Origin: Escherichia coli O157:H7
Lineage (GTDB): Bacteria > Pseudomonadota > Gammaproteobacteria > Enterobacterales > Enterobacteriaceae
Length of the DNA stretch: 64,000 nt
Assembly: GCF_013167455.1 (NCBI RefSeq)
Contig: NZ_CP038328.1
Direction: 5' to 3' (one strand)
Every line of letters begins with the position of its first letter. Positions within the stretch are counted from its first letter, which is position 1. Below are positions 50,201 to 53,200 of the stretch, in pieces. The position numbers were made by a program.

Positions 50201-53200
50201 GGTGAGTGAGTGGTTGCCGTAAGGGCCAGTGTTGGCGCGGAAATCCATCTTCACTGCCGTCAGGCGACCATCTTTTTTCGCTCCCAGTTTGACGGTGACT
50301 TTCGCGACGTGACGAGAGGTGTTAGCAATAAACTCTTCTTCACGGGTGTAGCGGAACAGTACCGGACGCCCGGTCACGCAGGTTGCCCAGGCGCACACTT
50401 CTTCCAGCAGGATGTCCTGTTTGGAACCAAAACCGCCGCCAACTCGCTCTTTAATGACATGAACTTTATGCTGTTTCATGTCCACGAGGCGCGCGACCTG
50501 GCGGCGTAAGTGCCATGGTACCTGGGTGGAGGCGTGGATAACCAGACGATCGCCGTCCATCCGGGTAAAGCAGATATGTGTTTCAGTCGGGCACTGCTGC
50601 GCCTGCGTTGAGTTATAGGTTCGCTCAATGATCACATCGGCATCGGCAAAGCCTTTGTCCATATCGCCAATATGACCATGAATACTAGCGGCGATATTTT
50701 TGCGAGGGCGAGAACCGATCGGGAAGTTGATGATCATATGCTCGCCGCGCTGGGCTGCATGGCTGTTATCGTCTTCCAGAGTATCTGGCGCACCAGCAAC
50801 ATACACCACCGGTTCATCGTGCACGACAGGCGCATCTTCCGCCATTGCTTCGTCGATCGACATTACCGGCTTAAGCACTTCATATTCAACCTCGATGAGT
50901 TTCAATGCTTCGAGCGCAATTTCTTCACTTTCAGCGACCACCGCAGCAACGCGATCGCCGACGTGACGCATTTTTTTGCCGAACATACGGCGGTCAAGCG
51001 GTGACGGTTCCGGTGCGCTCTGACCCCCCGGGGTATAGTAGATATCAGGGCAATTCAGGTGAGTAATAACGTGAACGACGCCCGGTAAGGCTTCAGCTTT
51101 GCTGACATCCAGATGAGTAATCAGTGCGTGAGCGTGTGGGCTACGTAACATTTTAATGACGCAGGCGTCAGCCGTTACGCGGTCTTCAACATAGCAGGGT
51201 TTCGCCTGCACCATTTTCGCGGCATCAGTTTTAGGATAATGCTTGCCAATGACTTCAAGGTCGTCACGGAAAGTCGGAGCGATATCAATGGTGGCCTGCG
51301 GATTATTTTTACGTGCAACCGCCAGTTCAATGACCTGATAGTATTGCTGCCAGCCAGCATCGCGGCTGAACAAACCAGAAAGCGCGTCGTCGATCTCTTC
51401 GCGGGTAGGTGCGGCGATGCGATCGAGAAGATCGGTGATAATCAGAGCTGCAGCTGGATCGTTATAACCAGACTGCACCACGCCAACATCAACCATTGCC
51501 TGTTGAACCAGACTTAACTCGTTCCATTTGCCCAGAGATTCTGCGGTACGAATATCTGCCTTCTCTAACTGTGCGGCAATAAGCAAGGACGCGTTAACGA
51601 TATTACCGTTAAAGATGATTGCGTCAGAACCGGCAAACCCGAAACCATCATCACTGTTGCGTACAGAGTGCATTCCCATGTTAAACAACAGCTTTTGCAC
51701 GTTTTCGCCTGGATTAACGGTTAGCTCCTGAGGCGCGCCATTTAAAGTAAAGTGGATGATCATACGGCTTCCTCCCCAGCCTGTTGGCAGTCGGCATACA
51801 GGTCGGCTACCAGAACTCCCGTGATATAGCGTTTATAGGCCACGCTGCCCCGCAAATCTTCCTGCGGGAAAATGGCGTTGGCGACAGCCTGTTCAAGTGC
51901 ATTGCCTTCCAGATTTTGTTTTTCGACATCATGCAGACGCAGTGCTTTACTGGCGACGCCATCCAGCGCAATTCGCATACCGTCGTGGTCTGTCATTGCA
52001 ACGGCTGCCGTCACGACGGTTAAACCTGCCTGAGAACGGCTAATTTTGCGGGTCGCACAGGTGCGATACGGATCTTTAATGATAATTTCGGTTAGCAGGC
52101 GATCGCATGGGCAGGCCAGGTAGTCCTCGATTGACAGCGTTTCGCCGTTGCCAAAAACCAGTTCAGCATCCAGTGCCAGCAGGACGGGAAGCAGCACTGA
52201 CTCTTCCTGCCGGGCGGCGATTTCACCACCAATGGTCGACTGATTACGAACATGGCGTGAGTAAACAAAACCGAGGGCTTCACGCAGTGCTGCAGGAATA
52301 AATCGCGCATCACGCAGTGGCTGCAAGCGAGACATTGCGCCAATCCGCAGTGCACCGTTATCCCAGTCAACCCAGTCCAGTTCCAGATCCTGTAAGGAAA
52401 TGGCAATCTTTTTATCGGTACGGGTTGGTGTAGCATTGAGTTTGCTGCCCCCGGCGAACCAGACGGCTTCATCCTGGTAGCGGCGCTTCAGTTCCAGCGC
52501 CTGTTCGACAGAGTCGGGCCTGAAAAATTGTTCAATCATCTTCTTTCCTTATTTAACCCTCTTCCTGCGGGAAGAGGGCATCTGTCATTTATGCCAGCGC
52601 ATCCATCCGACGCCACATACTGGCAGCGGCTTTTCTGGCTTGTGCATAAATGGAATCGCAATCGAAGTTAAACTGACGGTCTTCATAGACCATCACACCA
52701 TTGACCATCACGCTGTGAACGCTGCCTGAGCCCATACCGAAAGCGATATGCCCGGCGATATTGTCTGCCAGCAGCGGCGTCGGCGAGTTGTAATCGCAAA
52801 TGGTTAAATCAGCTTTGTAACCGGCTTCCAGAAGCCCAAATTTCGCGCCAAAGTTGCGGCTCATCAGTTCGTTACCGTTAGTCAGGGCTTTGGCAAAACT
52901 GTCAGGCCACAGCGGACCACCCGCATCGCGATGTTTAAAGAAGGCAAATTTCATCTCTTCAAACATGTCCGAACCAATGCCGTCCGTTCCCAACGCCAGA
53001 TTGCGGATGTCGCTAAGGTGATGGTTGTAGCCGACATGGTTGTTCATGTTTGAACGGGCGTTATGCACCAGGAACGCATCGCGCTGATTGAGTAGGGCGA
53101 TGTCATCTTTCGACAAGTACAGCCCATGAGCGACCAGCGTTTTGCTATCGATGAGATCGAATTGCGCCAGTCGTGCCAGCAGGTCTTTGCCGTACCAGTG

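What the first reader, a model, noticed from the sequence alone, without database searches (positions are those of the whole stretch)
52540..52588. Intercistronic hairpin without T-tract between ssnA and ygfM
The 49-nt gap contains a perfect 8-bp hairpin (minus strand ccctcttc-ccgcag-gaagaggg) immediately before the ygfM SD (AAGGAAAG), whereas the flanking junctions (ygfK/ssnA, ygfM/xdhD) are directly coupled. This could be a processing or stability element that uncouples ygfM-xdhD expression from ygfK-ssnA.
Basis: seen in the sequence. Interest (0 to 1): 0.25.

Follow-up and report, generated by a model that had tools for sequence, protein, structure and literature searches.

The report
Conserved hairpin between ssnA and ygfM
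A short, very stable RNA hairpin fills the only gap inside the E. coli uric-acid-breakdown operon ygfK-ssnA-ygfM-xdhD; it is kept by compensating mutations in many gut bacteria and looks like a copy of the old, unexplained 'BoxC' repeat, so it is a real piece of operon punctuation of a familiar kind whose exact job has not been measured.

Summary
No T-tract follows it. It is not chance. All 12 E. coli-type junction variants keep it. Diverged stems with the same geometry occur in Citrobacter, Pseudocitrobacter, Atlantibacter, Trabulsiella and Pluralibacter. Unrelated strong hairpins occupy the same gap in Edwardsiella, Serratia, Hafnia, Morganella and Buttiauxella. The two neighbouring junctions are tight everywhere. 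In sequence the E. coli stem matches blocks 1 and 2 and the TTA loop of the BoxC/PIT/TMECO repeat, but not its third block. My best reading (confidence about 0.4) is an intercistronic mRNA stem-loop that separates the YgfK-SsnA module from the YgfM-XdhD module. It would most likely act as a 3'-exonuclease barrier of the malE-malF type, and perhaps also as a translational insulator. A terminator, a DNA operator and a bridging mini-ORF are disfavoured. A functionless palindromic relic remains possible. No expression data exist for this junction. This is a new member of a known kind, of modest interest.

The parts
52556..52579 (-). The stem-loop. The 5' arm GCCCUCUUCC is at 52570-52579, the loop CGCA at 52566-52569, and the 3' arm GGAAGAGGGU at 52556-52565.
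   Evidence: It is conserved with compensatory changes. It matches BoxC blocks 1 and 2.
52580..52588 (-). A 9-nt single-stranded spacer (AUGACAGAU) between the ssnA stop codon and the stem. It begins with an AUG directly after the UAA.
   Evidence: The distance from stop to stem is 2-10 nt in 18 of 20 junctions (15 in Klebsiella indica, 29 in Paludibacterium).
52589..52591 (-). The ssnA stop codon (TAA).
52540..52555 (-). The spacer and ribosome-binding site of ygfM (UAAAU AAGGAAAG AAG). The Shine-Dalgarno sequence is at 52543-52550. UUA directly after the stem corresponds to the 'type A' second loop of BoxC.
   Evidence: The distance from stem end to AUG is 14-18 nt in the related (pyrimidine/purine) family.
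52537..52539 (-). The ygfM start codon.
53918..53920 (-). The ygfK stop codon, 2 nt before the ssnA ATG (53915-53917). This is a tightly coupled junction for contrast.
   Evidence: The spacing is +2 to +5 nt in all genera examined.
51760..51763 (-). The ATGA overlap of the ygfM stop and the xdhD start. This is a tightly coupled junction for contrast.
   Evidence: The spacing is -4 to +3 nt in all genera examined.

Best explanation
The element is an RNA stem-loop in the polycistronic ygfK-ssnA-ygfM-xdhD transcript. In sequence it is a BoxC-like polypyrimidine/polypurine palindrome, fixed at the boundary between two enzyme modules. I think it most likely works as a decay barrier of the malE-malF type. 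After an endonucleolytic cut in or downstream of the A/U-rich spacer, 3'-to-5' exonucleases chew back to the stem and stop. The ygfK-ssnA segment then outlives the ygfM-xdhD segment, and the two modules end up at different levels. Because the stem starts just beyond the reach of a ribosome sitting on the ssnA stop codon and ends 6-8 nt before the ygfM Shine-Dalgarno sequence, it should also keep ygfM initiation independent of ssnA translation. What is shown: the structure, its conservation, its position, and the absence of terminator features. What is inferred: that it acts at the RNA level, and the decay-barrier mechanism.
For: (1) The stem is stable: -15 to -25 kcal/mol in 16 of 20 junctions from different taxa, with gap-MFE z of -2.4 to -4.8.
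(2) There is compensatory evolution. Within E. coli the basal pair is G.U, A-U or C-G, and an upper pair is C-G or U-A. Across genera the stems are CCCUCUUCCC, CCCUCUCCU, CGCCUCCCG, CCUCCCCGC and UUUCUCCCCC, each with a matching 3' arm. On the model-fitted alignment, 27 cells show double changes against 9.4 in shuffles (0 of 500). In a loop-centred register, 89% of cells are paired against 64-68% when slid or shuffled. In the close group, 94.7% are paired against 49-73% when slid.
(3) Non-homologous hairpins sit at the same junction in Edwardsiella, Serratia, Hafnia, Morganella, Buttiauxella (REP-like) and Paludibacterium. What recurs is a stable hairpin, not a particular sequence.
(4) The architecture is conserved: the ssnA/ygfM gap is 42-72 nt everywhere, while ygfK/ssnA and ygfM/xdhD stay within -4 to +5 nt.
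(5) The gap separates two biochemical units. YgfK plus SsnA act together on yanthine, and XdhD-YgfM co-purify as the urate reductase (PMC12507026).
(6) Where ssnA has been deleted (Kluyvera, Klebsiella aerogenes), the stem shrinks to 5-7 bp with an 11-13-nt loop. This fits weaker selection once the upstream cistron is gone.
(7) The mechanism class is well documented in E. coli: malE-malF, and the protective 3' structures conserved between genera (PMC5927463).
(8) An RN|WUU RNase E-type motif lies just 3' of the stem in several lineages (B2 E. coli, Citrobacter R56, Serratia, Hafnia, Edwardsiella). I read this from the sequences. It is suggestive only.
Against: There is no measurement of RNA ends, half-lives or protein ratios for this operon. 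Adams et al. 2021 list no 3' end at the junction, although they detect one inside xdhD. Dar and Sorek's tables do not contain the operon. The RNase E-like motif is absent in Atlantibacter, Trabulsiella, Pluralibacter and Buttiauxella. In Kluyvera and K. aerogenes the arms still covary although ssnA is gone, which fits a role tied to ygfM's 5' side at least as well. Compensatory-looking changes in a palindrome can also arise from template-switch correction during replication, without selection on RNA. G.U versus A.C counts do not clearly pick the sense strand. Canonical BoxC/PIT elements showed no terminator or promoter activity and no known function (Hoyne and Maher 2002, as cited in PMC4666352), so resemblance to them does not by itself imply function.
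Confidence: 0.4

Rival explanations
1. The element is a translational insulator or tuner. The folded stem sits between the terminating ribosome on ssnA and the ygfM ribosome-binding site. It would block sliding or re-initiation of post-termination ribosomes and define a short standby site, so that YgfM (and through the ATGA overlap XdhD) is made at a rate set by its own Shine-Dalgarno sequence and not by ssnA translation.
For: The geometry is conserved in the related family: 2-9 nt from stop to stem and 14-18 nt from stem end to AUG, which leaves the Shine-Dalgarno sequence unpaired. The other two junctions are of the coupled type. The stem persists upstream of ygfM even where ssnA is deleted.
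Against: In Hafnia and Morganella the distance from stem to AUG is 22-36 nt, and in Paludibacterium the structure is larger, so a fixed relation to the ribosome-binding site is not general. No ribosome-profiling or reporter data exist. This reading is not exclusive of the decay-barrier reading.
Confidence: 0.22
2. The element is a functionless relic of a dispersed palindromic repeat (BoxC/PIT-like) that landed in the only non-coding gap of the operon. Its arm complementarity would be maintained by quasi-palindrome (template-switch) correction, not by selection. Other lineages would have acquired other palindromic repeats (REP-like and others) in the same gap.
For: The E. coli K-12-type gap matches BoxC blocks 1 and 2 at 16 of 16 specified positions (with one inserted base pair) and has the type-A TTA second loop. 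The Citrobacter-type stems are CCCTCTCC..GGAGAGGG (consensus and Table 1 of PMC4666352). A degenerate inverted BoxC pair sits in another intercistronic gap of the same window, gcvH-gcvP. The Buttiauxella hairpin looks REP-like. The gap differs between E. coli phylogroups at 11 of 50 positions, against 7% at third codon positions (p = 0.002), which recalls the hypervariability reported for BoxC loci. BoxC has no demonstrated function.
Against: The hairpin is retained at an orthologous site across at least 8 genera with turnover of stem sequence. It is present in 5176 of 5177 E. coli genomes that carry the region, whereas BoxC loci are reported as unstable between strains. Independent acquisition at one junction in many lineages is unparsimonious. 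Single substitutions in the Escherichia stems are mostly pair-preserving, about 4 of 5 against about 1 in 6 expected (my count). The stem weakens after loss of ssnA.
Confidence: 0.2
3. The element is a partial transcription terminator, attenuator or pause site that lowers read-through into ygfM-xdhD.
For: It is a GC-rich stem directly after a stop codon. The Edwardsiella and Hafnia versions are followed by UUUU/UUUGU.
Against: There is no U-tract in E. coli (UUAAAUAA), nor in Atlantibacter, Trabulsiella, Pluralibacter, Buttiauxella or Morganella (0-3 U in 8 nt). The consensus scan finds nothing. Term-seq lists no 3' end there. BoxC/PIT elements had no terminator activity (cited in PMC4666352).
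Confidence: 0.08
4. The element acts at the DNA level, either as a palindromic operator for a regulator or as an intrastrand triplex-forming motif like canonical BoxC.
For: It is a perfect DNA palindrome. The BoxC family was characterised as a triplex-forming DNA element in vitro (PMC4666352).
Against: The stem sequence is not conserved between genera while pairing is. That is the opposite of what an operator shows. The third, G-rich block needed for the triplex is missing: E. coli has AAATAAGGA, 3 of 8 positions. The site lies inside an operon with no promoter-like site nearby.
Confidence: 0.04
5. A bridging mini-ORF relays ribosomes. An AUG directly after the ssnA UAA opens a 17-codon frame in most E. 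coli. That frame runs through the stem and ends in a UGA overlapping the ygfM AUG (AUGA).
For: This is seen directly in the K-12/IAI1 sequence. UAAAUG and AUGA are classic re-initiation contexts.
Against: The AUG is AUA in phylogroup B2. The O157 1-nt deletion shifts the frame so that it ends 13 nt early. No start codon exists in Citrobacter R56, Atlantibacter, Trabulsiella or Pluralibacter. A 16-codon open frame has about a 46% chance expectation.
Confidence: 0.03

Closest known systems
BoxC / PIT / TMECO repeat of E. coli (Bergler 1992; Hoyne and Maher 2000, 2002; Holder et al. 2015, PMC4666352)
   Same: It has a polypyrimidine arm, a short loop and a polypurine arm. K-12 reads CCCTC-TT-CCC gca GGG-AA-GAGGG TTA, against the consensus CCCTCNCCC N3-6 GGGNGAGGG TTA. 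The Citrobacter-type stems are CCCTCTCC..GGAGAGGG. It is intergenic. A related degenerate pair lies in gcvH-gcvP in the same window.
   Different: The third block GGGNGAGGG is missing, replaced by the A-rich ribosome-binding site, so there is no triplex potential. One extra base pair is present in the stem. It is not in the published list of 23 MG1655 copies. It is held at an orthologous site across genera, whereas canonical copies are nearly identical to each other and their loci are unstable between strains.
Intercistronic protective stem-loops in operon mRNAs (the malE-malF REP, and the protective 3' structures of Dar and Sorek 2018, PMC5927463)
   Same: It is a stable stem-loop without a U-tract, placed between cistrons of one operon, conserved between genera, and sited where differential expression of operon segments would make sense.
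   Different: No 3' end, cleavage site or differential decay has been observed for this operon. Most structures in that study lie inside coding regions. This one is not a REP in Escherichia.
The papB-papA type 5' stem-loop, which stabilises the downstream segment after RNase E cleavage
   Same: A stem-loop lies a few nucleotides upstream of the downstream gene's ribosome-binding site. It persists upstream of ygfM in genomes that lost ssnA.
   Different: The 5' flank is short (2-10 nt) and C-rich in most genera, with no RNase E-like motif. No 5' end has been mapped.
Rho-independent (intrinsic) terminator
   Same: It is a GC-rich hairpin right after a stop codon.
   Different: The U-tract is absent in E. 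coli and most relatives. Transcription must continue for ygfM-xdhD to be expressed, because no promoter-like site lies in the gap.

Membership tests
BoxC / PIT / TMECO repeat | Block 1 CCCTCNCCC and its complementary block 2 GGGNGAGGG, separated by a 3-6 nt loop | tested here: met
   K-12/IAI1 has 0 mismatches in 16 specified positions if N is allowed to be 2 nt (one extra base pair). O157, R56 and Pseudocitrobacter have 2, and L045 has 1. At most 2 mismatches occur in 0.13% of random 65-nt windows of the window.
BoxC / PIT / TMECO repeat | A 3-nt second loop (TTA in type A, CCG in type B) | tested here: met
   The E. coli stem is followed by TTA. Other genera vary (AT, AG, AA).
BoxC / PIT / TMECO repeat | A third G-rich block GGGNGAGGG, which gives intrastrand triplex potential | tested here: not met
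   E. coli has AAATAAGGA (3 of 8). The Citrobacter type has TGATGAGGA (5 of 8), and C. freundii M-21 has GAATGAGGG (6 of 8; the N position is not counted). These matches coincide with the ygfM Shine-Dalgarno sequence, so they are confounded.
BoxC / PIT / TMECO repeat | A multi-copy dispersed family with near-identical copies | tested here: inconclusive
   The covariance model finds no second copy in the 64-kb window. A degenerate BoxC pair lies in gcvH-gcvP. A genome-wide copy count of the TT/AA variant was not possible. The site is absent from the 23 listed MG1655 copies.
Intrinsic terminator | A GC-rich stem-loop | tested here: met
Intrinsic terminator | A U-tract immediately 3' of the stem | tested here: not met
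   There are 2 U in 8 nt in E. coli and 0-3 in most relatives. Only Hafnia and Edwardsiella have UUUGU or UUUU.
Intrinsic terminator | An RNA 3' end at the site | tested here: inconclusive
   None is listed for ssnA or ygfM in the Adams 2021 supplements. However, the operon is barely expressed in those conditions and the files may be truncated.
Protective intercistronic mRNA stem-loop (malE-malF type) | A stable structure between cistrons of one transcription unit, conserved in relatives | tested here: met
Protective intercistronic mRNA stem-loop (malE-malF type) | A processed 3' end at the stem and a longer half-life of the upstream segment | not testable with these tools
   This needs Term-seq or Rend-seq and a rifampicin time course under inducing conditions.
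REP / BIME | The REP consensus (GCCGGATG...CATCCGGC type imperfect palindrome) | tested here: not met
   The Escherichia stem CCCTCTTCCC/GGGAAGAGGG bears no resemblance to it (direct reading). Only the Buttiauxella junction hairpin GCCGGAT..ATCCGGC looks REP-like.
Any Rfam family | A covariance-model match at or near the gathering score | tested here: not met
   The best overlapping hit is mir-320 at 17.7 bits against a gathering score of 55.5, E = 1.

The most novel reading that the evidence does not exclude
The ssnA-ygfM gap is an ancient BoxC-type element that was domesticated as a 'stem-loop plus Shine-Dalgarno' cassette. Blocks 1 and 2 survive as a selected RNA hairpin, and the purine-rich third block (GGGTGAGGG) has evolved into the ygfM ribosome-binding site (GAATGAGGG in C. 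freundii M-21, TGATGAGGA in Citrobacter, AAGGA in E. coli). That would make it the first BoxC/PIT copy with evidence of purifying selection and an assignable role in gene expression. It would suggest that at least some members of this 30-year-old orphan repeat family act at the RNA level.
Probability: 0.12. Interest if true: 0.6.

Novelty: new member of a known kind. Interest (0 to 1): 0.35.

Why it matters
The ygfK-ssnA-ygfM-xdhD operon encodes the first steps of the anaerobic (reductive) uric-acid degradation pathway, which was worked out only in 2025 and is relevant to gut urate handling. The hairpin marks the one place where the operon is not translationally coupled, exactly between its two enzyme modules. 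It is therefore the obvious handle for understanding, or for engineering, the ratio of XdhD-YgfM to YgfK-SsnA. It is also a rare case of a BoxC-like palindrome held at an orthologous position across genera with compensatory changes. That offers a concrete, mutable test locus for a repeat family whose function has never been found. If it turns out to be inert, that would be a useful warning that palindrome self-correction can mimic RNA covariation.

Tried and rejected
- **Rfam.** A scan of the region found nothing meaningful.
- **Promoter and terminator scans.** The consensus scans found no site in the gap on either strand. The opposite strand also lacks a T-run after the stem.
- **Sigma-54 promoter.** TGGCAT at the ssnA end has no -12 GC at the right spacing (direct reading). 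The pattern search is at chance level across the window.
- **SECIS idea.** I considered this because the cluster is selenium-linked, but the stop codon is UAA or UAG, not UGA.
- **Anti-SD / SD-mimic switch.** The arms look like CCUCC and GGAGG. The idea is undermined because distant genera use ordinary GC hairpins with no such composition.
- **CsrA site.** The GGA motifs are inside the stem, not in the loop, and are not conserved outside the pyrimidine/purine family.
- **RNase III site.** The stem is far too short (10-12 bp).
- **Bridging mini-ORF.** It is not conserved.
- **Strand assignment from G.U versus A.C counts.** This was not decisive.
- **MAFFT and covariance-model alignments of all genera.** Atlantibacter, Trabulsiella and Pluralibacter ended up 1-2 columns out of register. 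The tool count is therefore conservative. I added a loop-centred count of my own and a tool count on the close group only.
- **Literature.** There is no 3' end or decay entry for this operon in Adams 2021 or Dar and Sorek 2018. The supplements of PMC9023263 are not held. Yamada 1999 on ssnA is not held.
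Full report
**Observation.** The window is E. coli O157:H7-like. It is 100% identical over the queried 451 nt to strain PV15-279. The genes lie on the minus strand in the order mocA, ygfK, ssnA, ygfM, xdhD. Between the ssnA stop (52589-52591) and the ygfM ATG (52537-52539) lies a 49-nt gap. It reads AUGACAGAU-GCCCUCUUCC-CGCA-GGAAGAGGGU-UAAAUAAGGAAAGAAG.

The MFE is -19.6 kcal/mol in a 71-nt context (z = -3.3). For the gap alone it is -17.7 kcal/mol (z about -4, 0 of 300 shuffles). No T-tract follows, and the consensus scans see neither a terminator nor a promoter in the gap. Rfam has nothing.

The neighbouring junctions are tight as stated. The ygfK stop lies 2 nt before the ssnA ATG, and ygfM/xdhD overlap in ATGA. 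A perfect 8-bp hairpin alone would not be remarkable in 64 kb (28 seen, 6.8 expected). Stems of 9 bp or more are rarer (9 sites against 1.75 expected). The case therefore rests on comparison with other genomes.

**Conservation within E. coli.** The region is present in 5177 of 5426 complete E. coli genomes, and 5176 of those cover it almost fully.
- Most strains, including K-12, have a 50-nt gap with a perfect 10-bp stem CCCTCTTCCC/GGGAAGAGGG and loop GCA. O157 lacks one G.
- Phylogroup B2 strains read C-CCCTCTTCT-TTCAG-AGAAGAGGG-G. The basal G.U has become C-G and an upper C-G has become U-A, so both are changes on both sides.
- A metagenome scan anchored on the coding flanks gave 78 loci and 12 distinct junction variants, all of which still fold.
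- On the close group (Escherichia, two Citrobacter-like lineages and Pseudocitrobacter), 94.7% of cells are paired against 49-73% when the partner is slid. The covariation score is 0.209 against 0.127 in shuffles (0 of 500).
- The gap is also unusually diverged. B2 and B1 differ at 11 of 50 positions, against 24 of 334 third codon positions (p = 0.002). Even so, the stem stays fully paired.

**Conservation across genera.** A scan of one genome per species with YgfM, together with contigs encoding more distant YgfM homologues, gave the following picture. ssnA lies directly upstream of ygfM in Escherichia, Citrobacter, Pseudocitrobacter, Klebsiella indica, Atlantibacter, Trabulsiella, Pluralibacter, Buttiauxella, Serratia, Edwardsiella, Hafnia, Morganella, Arsenophonus and the betaproteobacterium Paludibacterium. 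The gap is always 42-72 nt, while ygfK/ssnA and ygfM/xdhD stay within -4 to +5 nt.

In 16 of 20 junctions the gap holds a hairpin of -14 to -25 kcal/mol.
- In the Escherichia-to-Pluralibacter group the stems differ but share the same geometry. The stems are CCCUCUUCCC, CCCUCUCCU, CGCCUCCCG, CCUCCCCGC and UUUCUCCCCC, each with its complement. The distance from stop to stem is 2-9 nt, the loop is 3-6 nt, and the distance from stem end to AUG is 14-18 nt.
- The model-fitted alignment gave 27 double-change cells against 9.4 in shuffles (0 of 500). This held even though three genera were out of register.
- A loop-centred register gave 89% pairing against 64-68% for slid or shuffled controls.
- In Edwardsiella, Serratia, Hafnia, Morganella, Buttiauxella and Paludibacterium the hairpins are unrelated in sequence. 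What recurs is therefore a stable hairpin as such.
- The exceptions are Arsenophonus (no hairpin), K. indica and one metagenome variant (weak hairpins).
- Kluyvera and Klebsiella aerogenes have lost ssnA except for a remnant of about 100 nt, and xdhC now lies upstream. They keep only a 5-7-bp stem with an 11-13-nt loop, although its arms still match.

**What it resembles.** While checking other intra-operon gaps of the window as a control, I found that the gcvH-gcvP gap carries hairpins of nearly the same sequence: UCCUCUUC-ugcg-GGAGAGGA and CUCUCUUC-gcaa-GGAGAGAG. That led to the BoxC / PIT / TMECO repeat.
- Its consensus is CCCTCNCCC N3-6 GGGNGAGGG N3 GGGNGAGGG.
- MG1655 has 23 copies, all intergenic.
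- It forms a triplex in vitro, and its function is unknown.
- Hoyne and Maher 2002 found no promoter or terminator activity, as cited in PMC4666352.

The K-12 gap reads CCCTC-TT-CCC gca GGG-AA-GAGGG TTA AATAAGGAA. Blocks 1 and 2 match at all 16 specified positions, with one inserted base pair, and the second loop is the type-A TTA. The G-rich third block is absent (3 of 8 positions). The Citrobacter-type stems are CCCTCTCC..GGAGAGGG. In those lineages the third-block position reads TGATGAGGA or GAATGAGGG, but that is also the ygfM Shine-Dalgarno sequence, so the match is confounded.

The element is therefore BoxC-like, but it fails the family's triplex-defining feature. It is not among the 23 listed copies, and the MG1655 annotation has no feature in the gap.

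**Mechanism.** Several readings are disfavoured.
- An intrinsic terminator is unlikely. Most lineages have no U-tract, no 3' end is listed at the junction, and BoxC has no terminator activity.
- A DNA operator is unlikely because the sequence is free to change while pairing is kept.
- An SD-mimic or CsrA idea is undermined by the ordinary GC hairpins in distant genera.
- A mini-ORF that would bridge ssnA to ygfM in K-12-type strains is not conserved.

What remains is a generic, stable RNA stem-loop between cistrons. This is the known signature of segmental mRNA stabilisation, as in malE-malF and in the conserved protective structures of PMC5927463. Its position between YgfK-SsnA and XdhD-YgfM, two separately acting enzyme units (PMC12507026), gives a rationale.

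I therefore favour a 3'-exonuclease barrier protecting ygfK-ssnA, with translational insulation of ygfM as a likely companion or alternative. The main sceptical rival is a functionless BoxC-type relic whose complementarity is maintained by template-switch correction. Arguing against that rival are the orthologous retention over many genera, the convergent hairpins in distant genera, the pair-preserving bias of single substitutions, and the weakening after ssnA loss. I cannot exclude it without experiments.

**Verdict.** The element is a new, well-conserved member of known kinds: an intercistronic stem-loop and a BoxC-like palindrome. Interest is modest (0.35). The main upside is that it offers a selectable, mutable test case for the orphan BoxC family and for tuning the urate pathway.

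Noticed in passing
window 49832-49834 (minus strand): xdhD carries a nonsense mutation, TGG to TAG (W644*). It splits the 956-aa gene into ORFs of 643 aa (49832..51763) and 303 aa (48893..49804). It is the only difference from O157:H7 PV15-279 across the gene, so this strain probably lacks a functional urate reductase.
   Followed up: yes
window 24940-25057 (+ strand), the gcvH-gcvP intercistronic gap: Three hairpins form a degenerate inverted pair of BoxC/TMECO-like elements: TCCTCTTC tgcg GGAGAGGA tca GGGTGAGG ... CCTCACCC tca CTCTCTTC gcaa GGAGAGAG. The gap MFE is -44 kcal/mol (z = -4.6). This site is not in the published list of 23 MG1655 copies. The canonical pair #10/#11 lies between ygfF and gcvP in MG1655.
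   Followed up: partly
window 52553-52588 (minus strand): An AUG directly after the ssnA UAA opens a mini-ORF. In O157 it has 11 codons ending at a UAA. In K-12-type strains it has 17 codons ending in a UGA that overlaps the ygfM AUG. It is not conserved: the start is AUA in B2, and it is absent in other genera.
   Followed up: yes
window 52540-52588 compared with L002 and L005: The 50-nt gap differs between E. coli phylogroups B2 and B1 at 22% of positions, against 7% at third codon positions of the flanking genes (p = 0.002). This could reflect local hypermutability, or import of a diverged allele similar to 'Citrobacter sp. MGH106'.
   Followed up: partly
window about 58270-58273, compared with L115 4419-5727: The reference strain PV15-279 has an IS1203 insertion that splits yqeC. 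The window lacks it, so yqeC is intact here. Otherwise there are only 4 mismatches over 26 kb.
   Followed up: partly
L012, L013, L015 (Kluyvera) and L105 (Klebsiella aerogenes): In these genomes xdhABC is followed by a gap of about 365-407 nt and then ygfM-xdhD. The block from ygeV to ssnA is deleted, but a remnant of about 100 nt from the ssnA 3' end is still alignable.
   Followed up: partly
L024 (NZ_JAUFQN010000014.1, 'Flavobacterium paronense'): This 7.7-kb contig is E. coli sequence with frameshifts: the junction is identical to E. coli and ssnA is broken into pieces. It is probably a contaminating long-read contig in that assembly.
   Followed up: no
window 52586-52594 and about 52655-52663 (minus strand): In E. 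coli only, there is a 9-nt complementarity between CAUUUAUGC inside ssnA and GCAUAAAUG spanning the ssnA stop. It appears as a long-range helix in the 181-nt fold. It is absent in Atlantibacter and other genera.
   Followed up: no
window 57091-57114 (minus strand), upstream of ygfK: CCTGGCAAGAGTGGTGCGATTGTTGCT contains two overlapping weak sigma-54-like -24/-12 matches about 75-95 nt before the ygfK ATG. This would fit the YgeV regulon, but matches of this quality occur at chance frequency in the window.
   Followed up: no
L079 (metagenome contig VOFH01003431.1) 692-745: This is a B2-type junction variant in which the ygfM Shine-Dalgarno sequence is partly deleted (GAAATTAAAAAGACGATG). It may be a natural mutant or an assembly error.
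   Followed up: no
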